IMG/VR virus record: IMGVR_UViG_3300022602_000130
Location: 1 to 54,440 of that record
Origin: a virus
Lineage: Duplodnaviria; Caudoviricetes
Length of the DNA stretch: 54,440 nucleotides
Direction: 5' to 3' (one strand)
The position numbers were made by a program, and so were the translations under genes. Below, in pieces: positions 4,986 to 50,193 of this stretch (within the stretch, counting starts at the first letter, position 1; every line of letters begins with the position of its first letter). Below the pieces are notes generated by a model. That model was not told the origin of the DNA. It ran no database searches and worked only from the letters and a program-made list of their open reading frames with translations.

Positions 4986-5236
4986 TGACACAGCGTTTTA
5001 TAGTTATAAAGCCATCGTTAAAAAATATTCGCGATTTGTCTGAAAATATTAATACTATTGACCTTTTAAAAAATAACAGTGTTCTTGTAATTGTTCATCC
5101 AACATGGTGGGTTTTTAATGAAGCCGATATTATAGATTGGTGCAATTCTTCCTTGACATCTTGGTCACGACAAGGTATGTTGTTAGGGTTCATCAATGAT
5201 GAAGAGCGTGACTTATTCCTAATGAGGTGGGCATGA
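4985..5236 (+). CDS. Hypothetical protein
   Basis: TAATG-coupled; ends in F.N.EERDLFLMRW, a C-terminus common in small phage proteins. Confidence 0.65.
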   Translation: MTQRFIVIKPSLKNIRDLSENINTIDLLKNNSVLVIVHPTWWVFNEADIIDWCNSSLTSWSRQGMLLGFINDEERDLFLMRWA

Positions 5237-5421
5237 CTTGGTTTATTATAACTTGGTTTTATCTTGCTGGCATGGGTTTAACTTATGCAATTGATGATAG
5301 TGACTCGCCGCTATTTTGGTTTACTACTGTTTTATTAGTATTTTGGCCGTTATGGGCTACTATTATTGCATTATGGTTTGTTTGGCTTGCTATTAAGGAA
5401 CGCAAATGGATATTGACATAG
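5233..5421 (+). CDS. Small membrane protein
   Basis: Two hydrophobic, Trp-rich segments. Confidence 0.6.
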   Translation: MTWFIITWFYLAGMGLTYAIDDSDSPLFWFTTVLLVFWPLWATIIALWFVWLAIKERKWILT

Positions 5422-5966
5422 ACTTTGGAAACCGTGAGGATATATTGAAACTTATCAAGCATATACCTGCGTCTATACGCCGTGACGGTACTGTTGTCAA
5501 GCACAACACTGGAGTCTATGTCAATCCAATTCCATTCAATCCGCTAAGTGGATTGAGTAATATTGATTATAGCGAAGCCGAAGAACTTGGTTATATGAAG
5601 TTAGACCTACTGAATGTTCATGTTTATAATTCAGTTCGCAGTAACGAGCATCTTGACGAACTCTGTAACCGTGAACCTCAGTGGGAACTGCTAAAAGAAA
5701 GGGATTTTGTTGCCAAACTTATTCATCTATCAAATCATTTTGATGTCGTACAACAACATCTTCCTACTACAATGGATATGCTGGCTATGTTATTGGCAAT
5801 CATTCGTCCATCAAAACGACACCTTATCGGAAAACGATGGCGAGAAATAGCCGATGAAATTTGGGTAAAGCCAAGTGAAGGTTATTATTTTAAACGCAGT
5901 CATGCAACCAGTTATGCGTTATTGGTAATGGTTCATATGAACCTTTTATGCGAGTCGTTTAACTAA
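5406..5966 (+). CDS. Miniature DnaE-like (family C polymerase) catalytic-core protein
   Basis: DIDIDF, KHNTGVY, KLDLL, LAIIRP and FKRSHATSYA, in the same order as DnaE motifs. Confidence 0.75.
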   Translation: MDIDIDFGNREDILKLIKHIPASIRRDGTVVKHNTGVYVNPIPFNPLSGLSNIDYSEAEELGYMKLDLLNVHVYNSVRSNEHLDELCNREPQWELLKERDFVAKLIHLSNHFDVVQQHLPTTMDMLAMLLAIIRPSKRHLIGKRWREIADEIWVKPSEGYYFKRSHATSYALLVMVHMNLLCESFN

Positions 5967-6317
5967 TTGAACAACACGGCGTTTGGTTCTGCGTTCTGCT
6001 AATTTTGCAATGCTAACAATGTGACCGTGTTGCTCACGAATATCTTTTGTTGTAAGCGTCACTGTACTATAACGATATTTGTCCCAAGAACCTTTTAAAA
6101 AAATATTGATAGGTATAAGACGATTGCTTTCCCACCACCATATATCTGCTGCTTCTAAAAAACCACGCTTATCTTCTTCTGTGCGCAATTTGTTAAAAGC
6201 ATACATTGAAACAATATCAGTGTCATGGTTTTGTATAATGCCAATATAATCAGCGGTGGGGTATTTTATGTAAGAAAGGAACGGATATTGTTCAAGCATT
6301 TGTTCAAGTGAAATCAT
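5946..6317 (-). CDS. Conserved phage hypothetical protein
   Basis: 123-aa ORF with WWWESNRLIPINIF motif. Confidence 0.7.
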   Translation of the reverse strand: MISLEQMLEQYPFLSYIKYPTADYIGIIQNHDTDIVSMYAFNKLRTEEDKRGFLEAADIWWWESNRLIPINIFLKGSWDKYRYSTVTLTTKDIREQHGHIVSIAKLAERRTKRRVVQLVKRLA

Positions 6318-7164: not shown

Positions 7165-8163
7165 ATGGAAATTACTGACCAAATATTGGCACATTTGCCG
7201 TGGAAAAAGAAGTCTACTCCCAGTGGGTGGATTAGCTTTAACGCGCCTTGTTGCCACCATTTAGGTCATAGTGCCGACACCCGTGGTCGTGGTGGCGTTC
7301 ATCCTACCCCAGAAGGCGGTATAAATTATCATTGCTTTAATTGCCACTATACATGCAGTTGGCAACCTGGTCGTCGTCTGTCTTATAAAATGCGCCGTTG
7401 GATGTCTTGGCTTGGCATGGGCGAAGATGCAATTAATCGCCTTGCACTTTTTGCAATAAGTCAAGAAACCACAGAACCAATCGCCATTGAACCTCGTGAG
7501 TTGCCAACATACGAACCACGCGACCCTTGTCCTGGTCGTCCAATTACAAGTTGGCTTAATGATGGATACATCAACGAAGAGGATTATAATAGCCTTGAAG
7601 CTGCTATCAACTATCTTGATGCTCGTGGTTTTAGCGATAAACTGCATGAGTTCTATTGGACTGATGACGCAGCATTGCGGAACCGTGTGCTTGTTCCATT
7701 TACTTGGAAAAACAAGCCTATGGGTTTTAGTGGTCGTCTGTTTGAAGATGGCAAAAAGAAAATCAAATACTTTTCTAACTATCCAAGCAATATGGTATGG
7801 GGTTATGACCGTCAGCACAAGGACGCAAAGTTTTGCATCGTTGTTGAAGGATTGCTTGATGCAGTTGCAATCAACGCAATTGCTATTTGCAGCAACGAAG
7901 TAAATGATGTGCAAGCAGAAACTATTGAAACACTTGACCGTGATATCATTGTTGTGCCTGACCGTGATGCGGCTGGCATGGCTATGGTCAATGCTGCACT
8001 AAAATATGGATGGGGAGTAGCATTTCCAGAATGGGAAAGCGGCATTAAAGACACTGCTGACGCTGTTGCTAAGTATGGTCAGTTGTTTACTATGCGCAGC
8101 ATTCTTGAAAATGTACATACTAGTAGTTTAAAAATTCAACTCCATTCAAAAAAATGGTTTTGA
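7165..8163 (+). CDS. DNA primase (Zn-binding domain + TOPRIM)
   Basis: APCC...YHCFNC zinc site; VVEGLLDA and VVPDRDAAG TOPRIM motifs; adjacent to the helicase. Confidence 0.85.
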   Translation: MEITDQILAHLPWKKKSTPSGWISFNAPCCHHLGHSADTRGRGGVHPTPEGGINYHCFNCHYTCSWQPGRRLSYKMRRWMSWLGMGEDAINRLALFAISQETTEPIAIEPRELPTYEPRDPCPGRPITSWLNDGYINEEDYNSLEAAINYLDARGFSDKLHEFYWTDDAALRNRVLVPFTWKNKPMGFSGRLFEDGKKKIKYFSNYPSNMVWGYDRQHKDAKFCIVVEGLLDAVAINAIAICSNEVNDVQAETIETLDRDIIVVPDRDAAGMAMVNAALKYGWGVAFPEWESGIKDTADAVAKYGQLFTMRSILENVHTSSLKIQLHSKKWF

Positions 8164-8194: not shown

Positions 8195-9601
8195 ATGGCA
8201 AAATCTTATGATACAGCAGTTCAAAAACTATTCATTGAAATGATGTTAAGTGACCCACAAAGTTATGTGCGTGTCCAGAATATCTTTAATCCAAATAACT
8301 TTGACCGCAGTTTGCAAAGTGCCGCGAAGTTCATTAAAGAACATTGTGAAAAGCATGTTATCATGCCACTACATGAACAGATTAATGCTGCAACAAGCAA
8401 CGGTTTCCAACCTATACCTGGCATGACCGAAGAACATACTGGCTGGTTTTTGAGTGAATTTGAAGGTTTTACTAAACAAAAAGAATTAGAACGTGCAATC
8501 CTTAAAGCCGCTGATATGTTGGAAAAGGGTGACTTTGATCCAGTTGAAAAGATTATCAAAGATGCAGTCCAAATCAGTTTGACTAAAGACCTTGGCACTG
8601 ATTACTTTGAAGACCCTATTGCTCGTCTTACAAAGATTAAAGATAATAATGGTCAAACCAGCACAGGTTGGAATACACTTGACCAGAAGTTGTATGGCGG
8701 TTTCAATCGTGGTGAATTGAACATTTTTGCTGGTGGTTCGGGTTCGGGTAAGTCACTGTTCATGCAGAATATCGCATGTAATTGGGTATTGGCCGGTCTT
8801 AACGGCGTTTATATCACACTTGAATTGAGTGAAGAGTTGACTGCTATGCGCATTGATGGCATGTTGACCAATACACCATCTAAAGATATTTTTAAAAGCA
8901 TTGAAGATATTGAAGTCAAAGTTAAAATGCTTGGTAAAAAGAGTGGACGATTGCAAATCAAATATCTACCAGCACAAAGCAATATCAATGATGTCCGTGC
9001 TTATATCAAAGAACTGCAAATTCGCAGTGGTCGTCGTGTTGACTTTGTTATGATTGATTATCTTGATTTGCTTATGCCAGTGAGTGCAAAAGTTAGCCCA
9101 AGTGACCTATTTGTTAAAGACAAGTATGTATCGGAAGAAATTCGTAACTTTGCAAAGGAAATGGACATTCTGCTTGTCACAGCATCACAGTTGAACCGTG
9201 CATCCGTAGAAGAAGTAGAGTTTGACCATTCGCATATCAGTGGTGGTATTTCCAAGATTAATACTGCCGATAATCTGTTTGGCATCTTTACAAGTCGCAG
9301 TATGCGTGAACATGGCAAGTATCAATTACAGCTTATGAAGACTCGTAGTAGTAGTGGCGTTGGTCAAAAGATTGAACTTGAGTTTGATATTGATAGTTTG
9401 CGTATCCGTGATTTAGCAGAAGATGCTGAATATCAACAGTTTAAGAAACAAAGCAGCAGTATCTTTGCAAGCATCAAGAGTGGCAGCAGCGTAAAACCAA
9501 CTACAGAAGCAGTGCCAGAAGATCAACCAGGTAAAATTGTTGCTGATGTCAATAGCAGTGCATTAAAACAAATGCTAAACAATCTTAAGCAGAAGAGTTA
9601 A
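8195..9601 (+). CDS. dnaB: Replicative DNA helicase (DnaB/T4 gp41-like)
   Basis: Walker A GGSGSGKS, ITLELSEE, MIDYLDL, TASQLNR, KTR. Confidence 0.92.
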   Translation: MAKSYDTAVQKLFIEMMLSDPQSYVRVQNIFNPNNFDRSLQSAAKFIKEHCEKHVIMPLHEQINAATSNGFQPIPGMTEEHTGWFLSEFEGFTKQKELERAILKAADMLEKGDFDPVEKIIKDAVQISLTKDLGTDYFEDPIARLTKIKDNNGQTSTGWNTLDQKLYGGFNRGELNIFAGGSGSGKSLFMQNIACNWVLAGLNGVYITLELSEELTAMRIDGMLTNTPSKDIFKSIEDIEVKVKMLGKKSGRLQIKYLPAQSNINDVRAYIKELQIRSGRRVDFVMIDYLDLLMPVSAKVSPSDLFVKDKYVSEEIRNFAKEMDILLVTASQLNRASVEEVEFDHSHISGGISKINTADNLFGIFTSRSMREHGKYQLQLMKTRSSSGVGQKIELEFDIDSLRIRDLAEDAEYQQFKKQSSSIFASIKSGSSVKPTTEAVPEDQPGKIVADVNSSALKQMLNNLKQKS

Positions 9602-11288
9602 ACTTTTCTAATTTTAATGTGCGCACATTTTGACATTCAATATACTGACTGCCATTGCTTGTTTTGACTTTGCCTACACCACACACAACATCATAGTCGT
9701 GATATGCAACTGGACCTTTTACCAATAGGTCAATATATTTTCCGTTACCAACACCAAGGGTAAGAAAGGTGATATACTTCCCGCCTTCTCCCTTGAATAC
9801 GCGACCATTGGCAACAAGACCAGCAAATTCAAAACGGTCAAGATACTGATTATTGCAATAAAAACCTGGTAAAAACTCTGCATCGCCCCACCATCCATAT
9901 TTTCTATATTCATATATAGGGTCATTTAGTAAGCTATAATTATATCCAAGTTCACGCAAATCCCAACCAGCGCGTTTGGCTTCATTTTTATAAACCCAAC
10001 GGCGATAGCTGCCTTCGCAATGCTTAAGATATGCTGCCCAAAATGGTTTTGGGTTGTGTGCTTTTTGATATGCAAGTGCCCAAATCAATCTCCCAAGATT
10101 TACAGCGTGTGCACGGCATAGCCCAAAGTTTCCAAGTTGATATAGTTCATCTATAATTTCTGTTTTATTTGGATGTGTGCCCATGCGGTGCATAAACTCA
10201 TAGACTTTTTCTTCATTCTTTTTTGCAAATGCACGACGATACATATCTGCCTCATACATATCACAGCCAATTAGTTTGCTTATCTTCTTAATAGCATCAT
10301 CTTCATATACAATGCTTTCTTCTAACCGCTGTTCTGTCCAGTCATGGAAGAAACTGGCTTTTTGACGACCAGTAGTTGCAACAGGGCGTATAAGTGCTGT
10401 TGCAAATACACAATCGCTGCGTGACTTTGGTTGTATTGCACGGAACAATCGGCGCATTGCTGGTGATTCACCTTGTGTTACACCTAATACATCGCCGTTA
10501 CAAAGTAGGTTTATAGTCGCTTCATCATAATCAGGATAATCTTCTAATCCCATGTTTGGTTCTATTTCATAAAGTTGACTTAACCCACGATTGGCAAGTA
10601 TATCAACTTTTAGGTGTTCAAGGTCTTCTACTTCATGTTTGTCTAATAGGATTTGATTGTCAGCATTTATTAAACTTTTTGGTAGATTATGCTTGAACAC
10701 AAGTATGCCACCGCAGTGTTTGCTAATGGCTCGTTTCTTACCAAGCAACTTCTTTTCAATACGAATAGCTTCCCCTATGTCAATGTCAAGATCATCGTAT
10801 TTGAAGTTGCGTGGTAATTTTCCCTTTGCACCAAGTCGTCTTGCTGCTTCGCGCTTGGCGCTTTTTTCTTTAAATGTTACATAATTACTAATTCGTGCAC
10901 TCTTGCCAGGCCAGCGTTTAAATATGCGTTCCATTACTGTAGTTTGCGCCCAATGTGGATAATCTATATCAATATCTGGCAAGTCGTCACGGTGTGGATT
11001 TAAGAATCGTGACAGTGGTATATCCCATTTGATAGGATCGACATCTGTGATTCCTAATGCCCAACAAACCAAGCTACTGCCTGCACTGCCACGAGTCATA
11101 TGTGGTAGGTCAGCAGTCATATCTAATATTTCACGGATTTGTAGGAAGTAATCTGTAAATCGTAAACCCAAGATGATTTCTATTTCTTCAACAAGGCGGT
11201 CATTGTATGCCGCATCATCTGGTATTTGTCTTCTAAATTCTCGTAATAATTGTTCGCATTGTGCCTGTGCATTTTCTGGTAGTTTCAT
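9585..11288 (-). CDS. dnaE: DNA polymerase III alpha-like (DnaE), lacking the PHP domain
   Basis: RGSAGSSLV, PDIDIDY, SKHCGG, KVDILANRGL, ALIRP, RAHA; C-terminal OB-like region. Confidence 0.9.
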   Translation of the reverse strand: MKLPENAQAQCEQLLREFRRQIPDDAAYNDRLVEEIEIILGLRFTDYFLQIREILDMTADLPHMTRGSAGSSLVCWALGITDVDPIKWDIPLSRFLNPHRDDLPDIDIDYPHWAQTTVMERIFKRWPGKSARISNYVTFKEKSAKREAARRLGAKGKLPRNFKYDDLDIDIGEAIRIEKKLLGKKRAISKHCGGILVFKHNLPKSLINADNQILLDKHEVEDLEHLKVDILANRGLSQLYEIEPNMGLEDYPDYDEATINLLCNGDVLGVTQGESPAMRRLFRAIQPKSRSDCVFATALIRPVATTGRQKASFFHDWTEQRLEESIVYEDDAIKKISKLIGCDMYEADMYRRAFAKKNEEKVYEFMHRMGTHPNKTEIIDELYQLGNFGLCRAHAVNLGRLIWALAYQKAHNPKPFWAAYLKHCEGSYRRWVYKNEAKRAGWDLRELGYNYSLLNDPIYEYRKYGWWGDAEFLPGFYCNNQYLDRFEFAGLVANGRVFKGEGGKYITFLTLGVGNGKYIDLLVKGPVAYHDYDVVCGVGKVKTSNGSQYIECQNVRTLKLEKFNSSA

Positions 11289-11367: not shown

Positions 11368-12519
11368 ATGAAATCAAATAATTTTTGTTATGAACCTTGG
11401 GTTGGGTTAGATATAGATAACTCTGGATTGATTAGACCATGCTGCAAATTTAATGTAAAAAGTGCAGAAGATTGGGAAAATTATAATATAAACCAGATTT
11501 CAATTGATGATTATAAAAAGAGCAATGGCTTAAACGCATTAAAAGAATCATTTTTAAATGGTGATAAACCAGTAGCATGTGAGCGTTGTTGGAAAGACGA
11601 AGAAGCAAATTACCCAAGTAAACGTCAAATGGATTATGAACGTTGGAAATCAGAATTTGATGGATTTGATATTACTACATCCGATACATTATTATTGACT
11701 CTTCCACTTGGAAACACTTGTAATTTAAAATGCAGAATTTGTAGCCCAAATTCAAGCAGTAGTTGGAAAAAAGAATTTCAAGATATCTATAATATAAAGT
11801 ATAAAGTAACTAATTGGGAAAATGATGATTCAATATGGCAATCGTTGTTAGATATGACAGATAATATATTAGAATTGCATTTGCATGGTGGTGAACCATT
11901 TTTATACGATAACAAAAAACATTTAGAAATTTTAGACAAGATTTGTAAATCACCTAATTCTAAAAAAATAAAGTTGCACTATAATACAAATGGCACTGTA
12001 TTTCCAGAACAAAAATATTGGGATATATTTGAAAAATTGGGATGGGTTGATATTCAACCTAGTATAGATGATATTGGTGCACGTTTTGAATATAATAGAA
12101 AAAATGCTGATTGGCATGTAGTTGAAGAAAACTTGATAAAATATAGAAATTATATAAATGATAGACCTAATATGCAGTTAAGCATTAGCACAACTGTAAG
12201 TGTGTTTACAATTTATTATCTTGATGAAATGTTTACTTATTTTATGGATAATGAACTACCAAAACCATGGTTAGGAAAATTATCTAAACCAGAATATTAT
12301 CGTTGTTCAATATTTCCAATTCAAGCCAAAGAAATAATCAAAAGCAAATTATCAAATAGCAAACATGAAGATTTACAAAATATAAGCAAATGGGTAGACT
12401 CAGATGACAGTTCTTTTTTAAATAAATTTAAAGAAAATATTAAATTACACGATAATTACAGAAAAGAATCGTTTGAAAAAGTATTTCCTGAAATATATCC
12501 TTGGTTATTTGAAACATGA
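11368..12519 (+). CDS. Radical SAM protein with an N-terminal SPASM/twitch-like Cys cluster
   Basis: CNLKCRIC, GGEPF, NTNGT; N-terminal CYEPW...RPCC...CERCW. Confidence 0.9.
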   Translation: MKSNNFCYEPWVGLDIDNSGLIRPCCKFNVKSAEDWENYNINQISIDDYKKSNGLNALKESFLNGDKPVACERCWKDEEANYPSKRQMDYERWKSEFDGFDITTSDTLLLTLPLGNTCNLKCRICSPNSSSSWKKEFQDIYNIKYKVTNWENDDSIWQSLLDMTDNILELHLHGGEPFLYDNKKHLEILDKICKSPNSKKIKLHYNTNGTVFPEQKYWDIFEKLGWVDIQPSIDDIGARFEYNRKNADWHVVEENLIKYRNYINDRPNMQLSISTTVSVFTIYYLDEMFTYFMDNELPKPWLGKLSKPEYYRCSIFPIQAKEIIKSKLSNSKHEDLQNISKWVDSDDSSFLNKFKENIKLHDNYRKESFEKVFPEIYPWLFET

Positions 12520-13526
12520 TCCAGATAGAAAAAATACAACATCTTCACATGGAATTCAGCAGTTTATGTAATGCTCGCTGTCCACTATGCCCAAGAAATT
12601 TATATGGATATCCATATAATCGTGGATATGAAGAAACAAATTTATCGTTGGCACTCATACAAAAATCATTTAGCCCACAGTTTATAAAACAATTAGGTAT
12701 GATTTTAGTTAATGGAAATTTTGGTGATTTTACTGCTAATTTAGAAAGTATAGATATACTAAAATATTTTAAAAAACATAATCCAAGTTTATTTGTGCAA
12801 ATAAGCACAAATGGCAGTGCAAGAAATGCTGAATTTTGGACTGAACTTGGAAAGTTTAAAAATACAAGAACAGAATTTTGTTTAGATGGACTTGAAGATA
12901 CGCATCATCTATATCGTCAAGATACAGATTTCAATAAAATTATAGAAAATGCCAAAACTTATATGGCTTCTGGTGGTTTTGCTATATGGAAAATGATTAA
13001 ATTTGACCATAATAAACACCAAATTAAAGAGGCGAAACAAAAAAGTATTGAGTATGGATTTCGCAGTTTTAATTTACAAGATCATGGTAGAAATAGTGGA
13101 CCAGTTTTTGATCGTAAAGGGAATTTAGTGCATGTTATGGGTGATTGGAATGCAAGCACTGATATTGAAGAAATAATAGAGTTTCATGGTCAACCAGACA
13201 ACAAGTTTAACTTTCCGCCTTATGATCCAAATAGAACAATAAGTTGTGGCACAAAAAATAAAAGATCAATTTATATTGCAGCCGATGGCAGAGTTTATCC
13301 ATGTTGTTTTACAGGATTTTCACCTCATTCTTATAATAAAGGATGGCACGGATTTATTAATAAACAAATAGCACCATTGGTTAAAAATAATAGTTTACAT
13401 GAAAATACACTTGAAGAAGCTATAGGTTGGTTCAGTAAAGTTGAATCGGCTTGGACTAAAACAAGTATAGAAGATGGTCGCTTAATACAGTGCGACATTA
13501 CTTGTGGTAAATTGGAAACAGCTTAA
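12516..13526 (+). CDS. Radical SAM protein with a C-terminal SPASM-like domain
   Basis: CNARCPLC, STNG, DGL; C-terminal C...DGRVYPCC...CDITC. Confidence 0.9.
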   Translation: MIQIEKIQHLHMEFSSLCNARCPLCPRNLYGYPYNRGYEETNLSLALIQKSFSPQFIKQLGMILVNGNFGDFTANLESIDILKYFKKHNPSLFVQISTNGSARNAEFWTELGKFKNTRTEFCLDGLEDTHHLYRQDTDFNKIIENAKTYMASGGFAIWKMIKFDHNKHQIKEAKQKSIEYGFRSFNLQDHGRNSGPVFDRKGNLVHVMGDWNASTDIEEIIEFHGQPDNKFNFPPYDPNRTISCGTKNKRSIYIAADGRVYPCCFTGFSPHSYNKGWHGFINKQIAPLVKNNSLHENTLEEAIGWFSKVESAWTKTSIEDGRLIQCDITCGKLETA

Positions 13527-48729: not shown

Positions 48730-50193
48730 ATGATATTAGGTATCAATGCTAATAATCATGATGCAAGCGTTGCTCTTGTTGATGGGTCTGATATTCTGTT
48801 TGCAGGTCACGCTGAACGGTATAGCAGAGTAAAAAACGATCCACATCTTAATGATGCGTTGATTGATGATGCACTTCAATATGGTATACCCACCCAAATT
48901 TTATGGTATGAACAACCATGGAAGCATACCGTTCGTAATCTTGTGAGTGGTCAAAGACCACTACATTACAATATAAAAAAATATTTAAAAAAATATGGGT
49001 TAGATAATATACCCGTCAAAACTACGCCACATCATGGTGCACATGCTGCAATGGGCTATTATACCAGTGGATTTAGTGATGCTGCTATCGTTGTCATTGA
49101 TGCTATCGGAGAATTAGAATGCACTTCAATTTGGCGTGGACATGCTGACAAAATAGACAAAGTTTGGAGCAGTTACTATCCAGAAAGCATTGGTCTATTT
49201 TATAGTGCTATTACTGATTATCTTGGTTTTAAACCAAATGAAGAAGAATATATTGTCATGGGTATGGCAGCATTTGGTAAGCCAAAACATGTTGATGCAT
49301 TAAAACAGGATTTCTTTACAAGTTGGAAGTCATCAGATATTGGATTTCTACATAATTTGCATCGTGGTATGAAGTGGTATATGCGTCCACGGCAAGAAGG
49401 TTGGTTAGATGAAGACCTTGCAGCGAGTGCACAAGCAATTTATGAATCTTATCTGTCTGATATAGTTGATTATGCAATTAAAATAACAGGTAGTAAAAAT
49501 ATAATTCTTGCTGGTGGATGTGCATTAAATTGTGTCGCAAATAGCAATATTAAGATATCTAATAAAATTAAAAAAATATGGATTCCACCAAATCCTGGCG
49601 ACAGTGGTTTAAGTTTAGGTGCAATCGCTTACCATACCAAGCAACTAATTCATTTAGACCATGCTTTCCTTGGACATAACATTGATCGCAAAGTGGACAT
49701 TCGTGCAGTTGTTGAAGCATTAGAATCAGGTCAAGTTGTAGGTATTGCAAATGGTCGTGCTGAGTTTGGACCACGAGCGTTAGGCAATCGTTCATTACTT
49801 GCTGATCCTCGTGGTGAGAATGTAAAAGATCGCGTAAACGCAATTAAAAAACGCGAACCATTTCGTCCGTTTGCTCCTATTATACGAAAAAGTTTCTTTA
49901 GTTTATATTTTCATAGCAGTATAAGAACTAATCAAGATTACATGCAATATGCTGATACTTGTATTAAACCTGGTGAATTTCCTGCAATATGCCACATTGA
50001 TGAAACCAGCCGTGTGCAAACAATTGATCAGCTTTCGCCAAGTATTACTGTCAAGATATTAGAAGCATGGTATTTGCGAACTCGCTGTCCAATGTTGCTT
50101 AACACAAGTCTTAATATCAAAGGTGAACCATTGGTGAATACTTGGGCAGATGCTGAACGATTTAGTCAATTACATAATGTGGCGGTATTCTAA
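48730..50193 (+). CDS. Carbamoyltransferase (NodU/CmcH family)
   Basis: LGIN..NHDASVAL, ERYSRVKND, HH.AHA, DAIGE, VMGMAAFG, GGCALN, EFGPRALGNRS, RPFAP, LNTSLN. Confidence 0.93.
   Translation: MILGINANNHDASVALVDGSDILFAGHAERYSRVKNDPHLNDALIDDALQYGIPTQILWYEQPWKHTVRNLVSGQRPLHYNIKKYLKKYGLDNIPVKTTPHHGAHAAMGYYTSGFSDAAIVVIDAIGELECTSIWRGHADKIDKVWSSYYPESIGLFYSAITDYLGFKPNEEEYIVMGMAAFGKPKHVDALKQDFFTSWKSSDIGFLHNLHRGMKWYMRPRQEGWLDEDLAASAQAIYESYLSDIVDYAIKITGSKNIILAGGCALNCVANSNIKISNKIKKIWIPPNPGDSGLSLGAIAYHTKQLIHLDHAFLGHNIDRKVDIRAVVEALESGQVVGIANGRAEFGPRALGNRSLLADPRGENVKDRVNAIKKREPFRPFAPIIRKSFFSLYFHSSIRTNQDYMQYADTCIKPGEFPAICHIDETSRVQTIDQLSPSITVKILEAWYLRTRCPMLLNTSLNIKGEPLVNTWADAERFSQLHNVAVF

What the first reader, a model, noticed from the sequence alone, without database searches (positions are those of the whole stretch)
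5406..5966. 186-aa 'mini-DnaE' retaining all three catalytic aspartate positions
The protein starts at the DxD motif (MDIDIDF) and then shows KHNTGVY, KLDLL, LAIIRP and FKRSHATSYA. These match, in order, PDIDIDY, KHCGGIL, KVDIL, ALIRP and LCRAHA of the 567-aa DnaE in this window, with the thumb and finger insertions largely deleted. DnaE is normally >1000 aa. The RGS motif is missing and no ORF in the window supplies it, so this is either half of a split polymerase or a minimal nucleotidyltransferase with a new role (priming, DNA modification, repair).
Basis: partly seen in the sequence, partly recalled or inferred. Interest (0 to 1): 0.78.

Follow-up and report, generated by a model that had tools for sequence, protein, structure and literature searches.

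The report
Half of a split mini polymerase
This small phage gene encodes the metal-binding half of a two-piece, stripped-down bacterial-type DNA polymerase that was already noticed by computer analysis in giant phages in 2021, and whose job in the cell has not been tested.

Summary
The ORF is real: 5406..5966 (+), 186 aa, and the frame is closed upstream, so the protein starts at M-D-I-D-I-D. It is a drastically shortened C-family (DnaE) polymerase core. Profile and fold searches hit only DnaE/PolC. Its 186 residues span E. coli alpha 401-780. D2/D4/D6, K65 and D67 line up with the catalytic Asp positions and are conserved at 90% or more in 105 homologs.

In phages 121Q and Atu_ph07, and in an 88%-identical complete relative (G001), a 171-177-aa protein ends just after a GRGS motif and just before the DxD. 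It is encoded far from the C-terminal unit. The predicted pairing scores 0.90 against a best control of 0.00. One natural fused form exists.

The partner is not in this 54-kb window, which is about 16% of the genome. The family was already described computationally as a split minimal Pol III alpha of group 2.2 jumbo phages (Iyer et al. 2021). I found no biochemistry on it.

What is new here is modest. This sub-lineage also carries a variable 567-aa PHP-less DnaE. That gene is a separate accessory gene, not the partner.

The parts
5406..5966 (+). C-terminal unit of the split minimal DNA Pol III alpha (186 aa). It holds the metal-binding palm strands and a reduced finger region.
   Evidence: ORF. 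phrog_11778 'DNA polymerase', E 1.1e-60. AF2 pLDDT 96.9. VIA rows 1-15 are all DnaE/PolC, Z 6.3-9.7, rmsd 3.2-4.3, 179-185 residues aligned.
5409..5423 (+). D2-I-D4-I-D6, the DxDxD metal-binding strand at the very N-terminus.
   Evidence: D2, D4 and D6 are each conserved in 90% or more of 105 sequences. They align to Taq alpha D463/D465/D467. That D463/D465 are the catalytic residues is recalled, not tested here.
5499..5513 (+). K32-H33-N-T-G36 strand. The thumb domain that lies between two palm strands in full-length DnaE is here reduced to a tight hairpin (strands 20-26 and 29-38).
   Evidence: H33 and G36 conserved at 90% or more. Secondary structure from the model. 186 residues span E. coli 401-780.
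5598..5606 (+). K65-L-D67, the third catalytic aspartate strand.
   Evidence: K65 and D67 are the only two invariant columns in 105 sequences. They align to E. coli K553/D555 and Taq K616/D618.
5802..5816 (+). I133-R134-P135-S-K137 finger motif, matching the 'LxRPG' motif of DnaE.
   Evidence: I133, R134, P135 and K137 conserved at 90% or more. Aligned to Taq 'LYRPG' and E. coli 'LFRPG'.
5889..5918 (+). F162-KRSHATSY-A171 finger helix, matching 'FNKSHSAAYA' of DnaE.
   Evidence: K163, H166 and A171 conserved at 90% or more. Aligned to E. coli 739-768 and Taq 809-824. phrog_405 positions 773-809.
5946..6317 (-). Conserved convergent neighbour (123 aa, function unknown) that overlaps the 3' end of the ORF by 21 nt.
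   Evidence: phrog_11637, E 4.8e-31. A small reverse-strand gene sits in the same position in Atu_ph07 and 121Q.
7165..8163 (+). DnaG/gp61-like primase, a conserved downstream neighbour.
   Evidence: phrog_47, E 2.9e-29. Synteny in 121Q, Atu_ph07 and the related loci.
8195..9601 (+). DnaB/gp41-like replicative helicase, a conserved downstream neighbour.
   Evidence: PF03796, E 2.3e-19; phrog_19, E 1e-65. Synteny.
9585..11288 (-). Separate 567-aa PHP-less DnaE with its own RGS, DxD, KH and KVD motifs. It is not the partner of the 186-aa unit and is variable among relatives.
   Evidence: PF07733, E 1.4e-40, and PF17657, E 1.3e-14. Sequence. Of 64 related loci it is present in 9, a remnant in 1, absent in 23, and undecidable in 31.

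Best explanation
The 186-aa protein is the C-terminal subunit of a two-chain, minimal C-family (Pol III alpha / DnaE-type) polymerase core found in Rak2-like 'group 2.2' jumbo phages.

It supplies the three metal-binding carboxylates (D2/D4 on the first strand, D67 on a neighbouring strand), the conserved K65 and H33, and a cut-down finger region (IRP..K, FKxSH..YA). It has no thumb, PHP, clamp-binding or OB domain.

The missing GS (NTP-binding) motif comes in trans from a protein of about 171 aa. That protein is encoded far away in the genome and ends exactly where this one begins. The two associate non-covalently, because there is no room for split inteins, and rebuild one Pol-beta-like nucleotidyltransferase active site.

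What is shown: homology, conservation, the split point, and co-occurrence in relatives.

What is inferred: (a) that this phage carries the N-unit outside the window; (b) that the two chains bind; (c) that the heterodimer is an active DNA polymerase working as an accessory enzyme beside the phage's family B replicase. Because the gene sits next to the primase and helicase genes, it most plausibly performs short, distributive synthesis at primers or gaps.
For: Family and fold:
- phrog_11778 'DNA polymerase', E 1.1e-60.
- The PDB profile search hits only Pol III alpha, 9 of 9.
- AF2 model: pLDDT 96.9, pTM 0.89.
- Foldseek: all 6 matches with E<=0.001 and all of the top 15 rows are C-family polymerases.
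- VIA rows 1-15 are all DnaE/PolC (Z 6.3-9.7, rmsd 3.2-4.3 A, 179-185 of 186 residues aligned). The next row has Z 4.1.

Catalytic residues: K65 and D67 are invariant. D2, D4, D6, H33, G36, R134, P135, K137, K163 and H166 are conserved at 90% or more in 105 sequences that reach down to about 30% identity.

Selection: dN/dS is 0.08-0.22 in 14 of 15 pairs; dS was saturated in the 15th.

Split point:
- The N-units of 121Q, Atu_ph07 and G001 match PF07733 positions about 16-100 and stop about 25 residues after GRGS.
- The N-unit model, residues 79-171, aligns to E. coli alpha 279-393 (Z 5.7, rmsd 3.4, 91 aligned).
- The C-unit begins at E. coli 401.

Co-occurrence:
- The complete relative G001 (338,435 bp, C-unit 88% identical) and G002 (322,512 bp) both carry the N-unit.
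- In the phage collection the C-unit is in 96 records and the N-unit in 94, with near-identical tallies by host genus.

Fusion: one natural 375-aa protein, P0174, joins the N-unit (hhalign probability 98.9% up to its last residue) to the C-unit through a linker of about 10 aa.

Binding:
- Complex prediction scored 0.90 in three runs; the best of 3 controls scored 0.00.
- That mark was reached by 58 of 80 solved complexes and 2 of 110 mismatched pairs.
- The runs agree in at least 97% of contacts and the partner's pLDDT is at least 90.
- My own alignments were used, so those counts hold only roughly.
- The N-unit GS loop (132-145) touches C-unit residues 1-8.
- Folded alone, the N-unit's GS region has low confidence, pLDDT about 50-66.

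Neighbourhood: the order C-unit, small reverse gene, virion protein, primase, helicase is conserved in 121Q, Atu_ph07 and the related loci.

Literature: Iyer et al. 2021 describe exactly this architecture (passages).
Against: - No N-unit is present in the window (tblastn). Its presence in this phage is extrapolated from relatives.
- The complex pass may only reflect likeness to solved single-chain DnaE structures, as the tool itself warns.
- Pfam does not recognise the C-unit at all.
- The N-unit profile found nothing in PDB sequences at E<=0.01, and its fold match is weak (Z 5.7).
- The fused form is a singleton on one 2,415-bp contig. No relative of it was found in viral contigs or by the 'longer' word search.
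- There is no thumb, clamp-binding, HhH or OB domain, so stable primer-template binding is not assured.
- No activity data were found in any paper I could search.
- A DnaQ-type proofreader was found in only 2 of 4 genomes that carry the split enzyme.
Confidence: 0.85

Rival explanations
1. It is a catalytically active heterodimer but not a templated DNA polymerase. With no thumb and short fingers, the Pol-beta-like core would act as another kind of nucleotidyltransferase, for example in end tailing, primer-independent synthesis, nucleotide signalling or DNA modification.
For: The thumb is replaced by a hairpin, and 186 residues span 380 residues of E. coli alpha. No clamp-binding or OB domains are present. 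The phages already have a family B replicase (Iyer et al.). Established knowledge, recalled: the Pol-beta-like fold also serves many non-polymerase enzymes.
Against: The finger motifs that DnaE uses around the incoming nucleotide and template (IRP..K, FKxSH..YA) are conserved at 90% or more. By fold, the closest relatives are only DnaE/PolC and no other nucleotidyltransferases. Both genes sit among replication genes: primase and helicase for the C-unit, and the clamp loader for the N-unit.
Confidence: 0.12
2. It is a stand-alone minimal nucleotidyltransferase that needs no partner.
For: The C-unit folds confidently on its own, pLDDT 96.9, and contains all three carboxylates.
Against: It lacks the GS motif of the fold. 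A protein carrying exactly that motif and ending at the split point co-occurs with it in 121Q, Atu_ph07, G001 and G002. The phage-collection tallies match, 96 against 94 records. A fused form exists.
Confidence: 0.03
3. It is a decayed remnant or a recent internal-deletion copy of the neighbouring 567-aa DnaE.
For: The same motifs occur in the same order, and BLASTP gives E 4e-4.
Against: Identity is only about 26%. dN/dS is 0.08-0.22. The family has 2285 hits at the 90% clustering level and 419 clusters at 50%. It is far more widespread than the 567-aa gene, which is absent from 121Q and Atu_ph07 (PF07733 finds only the N-unit there) and from 23 of 33 informative related loci.
Confidence: 0.01

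Closest known systems
Split minimal DNA polymerase III alpha of group 2.2 jumbo phages, C-terminal 'Mg2+- and DNA-template-binding' unit (Iyer, Anantharaman, Krishnan, Burroughs, Aravind 2021, Viruses 13:63; PHROG 11778)
   Same: Same family by profile. Same phage group: 121Q, GAP32, CBB, PA5oct, Atu_ph07 and XacN1 are its hits. Same split architecture, with the partner encoded at a distance.
   Different: This copy comes from an uncultured relative at 38-51% identity to cultured phages. Its sub-lineage also carries a 567-aa PHP-less DnaE, whereas the paper states that phages with the split version hold no other Pol III domains. I could not see the paper's figure or supplements, so I matched the family by description and by phage, not by accession.
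Bacterial DnaE / PolC (C-family replicative polymerase catalytic subunit; e.g. PDB 2HNH, 2HPI, 3E0D, 3F2B)
   Same: Pol-beta-like palm with the DxD plus D carboxylates, the K before the third Asp, and the RP and KSH..YA finger motifs. The fold match covers 179-185 of 186 residues.
   Different: The enzyme is in two chains. There is no PHP, thumb, beta-binding, HhH or OB domain. About 357 aa in total (171+186) compares with more than 1000 aa. The GS motif is supplied in trans.
The window's own 567-aa PHP-less DnaE (9585..11288, minus strand)
   Same: C-family palm and finger (PF07733, PF17657). It likewise lacks the PHP domain.
   Different: It is a single chain with its own GS motif and thumb. 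It is about 26% identical to the 186-aa unit. It is variable among close relatives and 94-97% identical where present. The best cultured or catalogued phage match is only 37% identical.

Membership tests
Split minimal Pol III alpha, C-terminal unit (PHROG 11778; Iyer et al. 2021) | Full-length match to the family profile | tested here: met
   phrog_11778, E 1.1e-60, residues 1-183 against profile positions 7-193 of 197.
Split minimal Pol III alpha, C-terminal unit (PHROG 11778; Iyer et al. 2021) | The chain begins at the DxD strand and lacks the GS motif | tested here: met
   The frame is closed upstream of M1. Homologs start 0-6 residues before DIDID in the 21 sequences printed, out of 121 aligned.
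Split minimal Pol III alpha, C-terminal unit (PHROG 11778; Iyer et al. 2021) | Conserved Mg2+-binding aspartates | tested here: met
   D67 is invariant. D2, D4 and D6 are conserved at 90% or more in 105 sequences.
Split minimal Pol III alpha, C-terminal unit (PHROG 11778; Iyer et al. 2021) | An N-terminal NTP-binding unit encoded by a distant gene in the same genome | tested here: inconclusive
   Absent from the 54-kb window, which is about 16% of the genome. Present in the 88%-identical complete relative G001 and in G002, 121Q and Atu_ph07.
Split minimal Pol III alpha, C-terminal unit (PHROG 11778; Iyer et al. 2021) | A host genome of group 2.2 type with a family B DNA polymerase | tested here: inconclusive
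   No PF00136 match in the window. Present in G001 and G002.
C-family DNA polymerase catalytic subunit (DnaE/PolC) | Pol-beta-like palm with three carboxylates at the DnaE positions | tested here: met
   Alignment to Taq D463/D465/D618 and E. coli D555. Structural alignment to E. coli 401-780.
C-family DNA polymerase catalytic subunit (DnaE/PolC) | GS (hG[GS]) nucleotide-binding motif in the same polypeptide | tested here: not met
   The protein starts after the motif. The motif lies in the separate N-unit of relatives.
C-family DNA polymerase catalytic subunit (DnaE/PolC) | Thumb domain between the palm strands | tested here: not met
   Strands 20-26 and 29-38 are joined by a tight turn. The 186 residues cover 380 residues of E. 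coli alpha.
C-family DNA polymerase catalytic subunit (DnaE/PolC) | PHP domain, beta-clamp-binding domain and OB domain | tested here: not met
   The chain corresponds only to E. coli 401-780. There is no Pfam hit of any kind.
C-family DNA polymerase catalytic subunit (DnaE/PolC) | Pfam DNA_pol3_alpha (PF07733) or DNA_pol3_finger (PF17657) above the gathering score | tested here: not met
   No such hit even at E<=10. The N-units of relatives do reach PF07733.
C-family DNA polymerase catalytic subunit (DnaE/PolC) | Template-directed DNA synthesis | not testable with these tools
   No biochemical data were found.

The most novel reading that the evidence does not exclude
The N-unit and C-unit heterodimer, about 357 aa in two chains with no thumb, would be the smallest working C-family DNA polymerase. 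It would act beside the family B replicase as a primer- or gap-extending enzyme coupled to the adjacent primase-helicase, in a Pol alpha/DnaE3-like hand-off. In this particular sub-lineage it would coexist with a third, mobile PHP-less DnaE, giving a three-polymerase phage replisome. It would also be a living model of the ancestral Pol III core, as Iyer et al. suggested.
Probability: 0.3. Interest if true: 0.7.

Novelty: new member of a known kind. Interest (0 to 1): 0.4.

Why it matters
C-family polymerases replicate nearly all bacterial chromosomes and are more than 1000 aa long. A conserved, widespread version cut down to two chains of about 180 aa would define the minimal catalytic core of the family. 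This version has 2285 C-unit hits at the 90% clustering level and at least 7963 N-unit hits.

Such a core would be a tractable model for how the Pol-beta-like palm became a replicase. It would also raise the question of why jumbo phages that already own a T4-like family B polymerase keep it under purifying selection.

The family was predicted in 2021, but in the library I could search nobody has reported testing it. The value of this window is as a clean, well-supported example. It also adds the observation that some members carry an extra PHP-less DnaE.

Tried and rejected
- **Pfam on the ORF:** nothing relevant, only a chance Mago-bind hit at E 0.34.
- **N-unit in the window:** tblastn found only the RGS region of the 567-aa DnaE, E 9e-5.
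- **The 567-aa DnaE as partner or parent:** rejected.
  - No match to it was found in 121Q or Atu_ph07 (the first look had no candidates, so this is weak). PF07733 finds only the short N-unit there.
  - It is absent in 23 of 33 informative related loci.
- **Fused forms:**
  - The 'longer' search (327-2000 aa) found none among 474 candidates.
  - One 375-aa fusion, P0174, appeared among the 150 listed representatives. It is a singleton on one 2,415-bp contig and has no relatives in viral contigs.
- **Split inteins:** rejected from the sequence. The N-unit ends about 25 residues after GRGS and the C-unit starts at the DxD, which leaves no room for them.
- **A DnaQ-type exonuclease as an obligate proofreading partner:** PF00929 was found in 121Q and Atu_ph07 but not in G001 or G002, so 2 of 4. 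PHROG scans found no exonuclease among 7 of the ORFs upstream of the gene.
- **N-unit profile against PDB sequences:** no hit at E<=0.01.
- **Promoter and terminator scan around the gene:** not above shuffles. 8 promoter-like sites against 6.5±2.0 expected, and 3 terminator-like sites against 1.3±1.1.
- **Literature:** no experimental study of the split enzyme turned up.
  - The 2026 jumbo-phage review has no mention of polymerase III or DnaE (term search).
  - The 2026 survey of bacterial polymerases has nothing on it in the passages found.
  - The PaBG paper concerns gamma and beta subunits only.
  - Supplements were closed, so accession lists and expression tables could not be checked.

Full report
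**1. What is in the sequence**

The ORF at 5406..5966 (+) encodes 186 aa. The ORF list starts each frame at the first start codon after a stop, so the frame is closed upstream. The protein really does begin M-D-I-D-I-D. An AAGGAA hexamer lies 5 nt upstream of the ATG.

The start overlaps the end of a 64-aa hydrophobic ORF (5227..5421). The 3' end overlaps a convergent 123-aa gene (5946..6317, minus strand) by 21 nt.

The window is a 54,440-bp viral record estimated to be 16% complete. It carries a DnaG-like primase (7165..8163), a DnaB-like helicase (8195..9601) and, on the minus strand, a 567-aa protein. That protein matches Pfam DNA_pol3_alpha (E 1.4e-40) and DNA_pol3_finger (E 1.3e-14) but has no PHP domain.

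**2. Is the DnaE resemblance real?**

Pfam sees nothing in the 186-aa protein. PHROGs places it in phrog_11778 'DNA polymerase' (E 1.1e-60) and weakly matches residues 146-180 to the DnaE family phrog_405.

I built a 105-sequence alignment, A1, from three sources:
- the window ORF;
- 10 of the 120 listed hits;
- 94 of the 150 listed 50%-identity representatives, namely those of 178-222 aa. The 56 dropped were shorter fragments or longer proteins, including the fused P0174.

Results with this alignment and the model built from it:
- **PDB sequence search.** The profile hits only DNA Pol III alpha: 9 of 9 hits, E 3.5e-5 to 1.7e-4. The three aligned stretches put DiDiD on Taq D463/D465/D467. They put K65/D67 on Taq K616/D618 and E. 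coli K553/D555. They put IRP on LYRPG/LFRPG, and FKxSHAxxYA on E. coli 756-765.
- **Catalytic residue identities.** That D401/D403/D555 (E. coli) and D463/D465/D618 (Taq) are the catalytic carboxylates is recalled from the literature. No call tested it.
- **Structure prediction.** AlphaFold2 on A1 gives a very confident model: pLDDT 96.9, pTM 0.89.
- **Foldseek.** All 6 matches at E<=0.001 and the whole top 15 are C-family polymerases.
- **VIA-align.** Rows 1-15 are all DnaE or PolC (Z 6.3-9.7, rmsd 3.2-4.3 A, 179-185 residues aligned). The next row drops to Z 4.1. Model residues 1-186 correspond to E. coli alpha 401-780, Taq 462-837 and G. kaustophilus PolC 972-1295.

So 186 residues stand in for about 380. 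The thumb lies between two palm strands in DnaE (boundaries recalled). Here it is reduced to a tight hairpin, strands 20-26 and 29-38.

Local alignments to the window's 567-aa protein put DIDID on a second 'DLDIDIG' at residues 166-172, not on the catalytic PDIDIDY.

**3. Conservation**

- K65 and D67 are invariant in A1. D2, D4, D6, H33, G36, R134, P135, K137, K163, H166 and others are conserved at 90% or more.
- Among the 120 closest homologs the same motifs are conserved at 97% or more. In the 21 sequences printed, chains start 0-6 residues before DIDID.
- Pairwise dN/dS against 15 related loci is 0.08-0.22 in 14. dS is saturated in the fifteenth.
- One locus (L019) simply ends four residues earlier.
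- The family is large. 2285 of 2333 candidates score E<=0.001 at the 90% clustering level. At the 50% level there are 419 clusters at E<=0.001, 267 at E<=1e-10 and 67 at E<=1e-30.

**4. The missing half**

In the phage collection the protein is found in 96 records. All cover at least 80% of the query at under 60% identity. All records listed are jumbo phages of the Rak2/121Q/GAP32/CBB, PA5oct, Atu_ph07 and XacN1 kind.

The gene order C-unit, small reverse gene, virion protein, primase, helicase is kept in Atu_ph07 and 121Q and in the related metagenomic loci.

Evidence for the partner in relatives:
- Searching the whole 121Q and Atu_ph07 records with PF07733 finds no long DnaE. It finds one short ORF in each: gene 56 (172 aa) and gp316 (177 aa). 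These match only profile positions 16-98 and end '...GRGS... EFL..'.
- No match to the 567-aa protein was found in either record (the first look had no candidates, so this is weak on its own).
- The complete relative G001 (338,435 bp, terminal repeats, C-unit 88% identical) has a 171-aa N-unit about 220 kb from the C-unit. Complete G002 (322,512 bp, 49% identical) has one too.
- In all, 4 of the 5 relative records searched have a PF07733 match. The fifth is a 30%-complete fragment.
- The N-unit model is only moderately confident (pLDDT 76.5). It is low across the GS region, about 50-66, when folded alone.
- N-unit residues 79-171 align to E. coli alpha 279-393 (Z 5.7, rmsd 3.4, 91 aligned). 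This match is weak by itself but agrees with Pfam.

The two proteins therefore tile E. coli alpha 279-393 and 401-780. The break falls in the loop just before the DxD strand. There is no room for split inteins.

Further support:
- The N-unit family is also very large: at least 7963 hits, capped at 8000 candidates.
- In the phage collection the N-unit occurs in 94 records with almost the same genus tallies as the C-unit's 96. I did not compare the accession lists one by one.
- A single 375-aa protein, P0174, joins both units through a linker of about 10 residues. It is a singleton on a 2.4-kb contig with no relatives found, so it is only weak 'Rosetta stone' support.

**5. Do the halves bind?**

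I ran complex prediction with the G001 N-unit (alignment A2: the N-unit plus 49 of the 120 listed hits) and the window's C-unit (A1).
- The score was 0.90 in three runs. The best of 3 controls scored 0.00.
- That mark was reached by 58 of 80 solved complexes and 2 of 110 mismatched pairs.
- The runs agree in at least 97% of contacts, and the partner's pLDDT is at least 90.
- My own alignments were used, so these counts hold only roughly.
- The N-unit GS loop (132-145) contacts C-unit residues 1-8, as expected for one composite active site.

Single-chain DnaE structures are solved, so this pass may simply reflect likeness to them. It supports binding but does not show it. The N-unit also came from a relative, not from this phage.

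**6. What is known**

Iyer et al. 2021 (PMC7824862; passages read) report the following for group 2.2 jumbo phages:
[quoted passage not shown] - it accompanies a family B polymerase, and possibly cooperates with it in synthesis of one strand or in repair.

The CBB paper (PMC5259590; passages) had noted a 'truncated' 172-aa Pol III alpha. The 186-aa ORF is thus a member of a family already predicted in print.

I matched it by description and by phage, since figures and supplements were not visible. I found no experimental study (term searches).

**7. What differs here**

Iyer et al. state that phages with the split version contain none of the other Pol III domains. This window, and G001, also carry a 567-aa PHP-less DnaE with its own RGS, DxD, thumb and fingers. 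G001 additionally has a family B polymerase.

Among the 64 related loci:
- 33 are informative, meaning the helicase is complete and there is enough downstream DNA;
- 9 have the gene at 94-97% identity;
- 1 keeps only a C-terminal remnant (L015);
- 23 lack it, with the radical-SAM genes directly after the helicase;
- 31 cannot be judged.

The gene occurs only where the C-unit is at least 85% identical. In those loci it is more conserved than the C-unit (85-91%) or the primase (80-92%). This hints at recent spread, which I did not test further.

Its best match among catalogued phages is 37% identical, in an uncultured 484-kb phage. It is not the partner of the 186-aa unit.

**8. Mechanism and confidence**

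- **Shown:** homology to the DnaE core, conserved catalytic positions, purifying selection, the exact split point, and co-occurrence of the two units in relatives.
- **Inferred:** presence of the N-unit in this phage, non-covalent assembly, DNA polymerase activity, and an accessory role at the fork.

The role at the fork is suggested only by neighbours: primase and helicase for the C-unit, and the clamp loader for the N-unit in 121Q and Atu_ph07.

The lack of a thumb and of clamp-binding domains leaves room for a non-polymerase nucleotidyltransferase role. A DnaQ-like exonuclease is not consistently present, being found in 2 of 4 genomes.

**Verdict**

The family is known and the biochemistry is open.

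Noticed in passing
window 9585..11288 (-): A 567-aa PHP-less DnaE with a complete palm, thumb and finger sits between the helicase and two radical-SAM genes. It is a presence/absence variable among close relatives: of 64 related loci, 9 have it, 1 has a remnant, 23 lack it and 31 are undecidable. Where present it is 94-97% identical, more than the flanking C-unit and primase. Its coexistence with the split mini Pol III contrasts with the statement in Iyer et al. 2021 that such phages hold no other Pol III domains.
   Followed up: partly
L015:12903-13196: One relative keeps only the last ~96 residues (472-567, 71% identity) of the 567-aa DnaE after the helicase. This looks like a deletion remnant.
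   Followed up: no
window 11368..12519 and 12516..13526 (+): Two adjacent radical SAM proteins, the second with a SPASM domain, follow the DnaE. Homologs directly follow the helicase in relatives that lack the DnaE.
   Followed up: no
window 5946..6317 (-): A 123-aa gene of unknown function (phrog_11637, E 4.8e-31) converges on the mini-DnaE gene and overlaps it by 21 nt. A small reverse-strand gene holds the same position in 121Q and Atu_ph07. It could be a functional partner.
   Followed up: partly
window 5227..5421 (+): A 64-aa strongly hydrophobic ORF overlaps the start of the mini-DnaE gene by 16 nt. In the GenBank records of GAP32 and CBB the homologous place is annotated 'putative membrane protein', and 121Q annotates a longer 212-aa product. 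Start-site annotation in cultured phages is therefore inconsistent.
   Followed up: no
P0174 (375 aa, metagenome protein): A natural single-chain fusion of the N-unit and C-unit through a linker of about 10 residues. It was seen once, on a 2,415-bp contig.
   Followed up: partly
L077:1516-2028 (-) (N-unit of relative G001): The first ~78 residues of the N-unit have no fold match in the search run. The GS-motif region has low confidence (pLDDT about 50-66) when the chain is folded alone, but the chain reaches pLDDT 88-89 in the predicted complex.
   Followed up: partly
window 22787..26224 (+), 48730..50193 (+): Class Ia ribonucleotide reductase large and small subunits and a Nol-like carbamoyltransferase (PHROG hits). 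These are ordinary jumbo-phage auxiliary genes.
   Followed up: no
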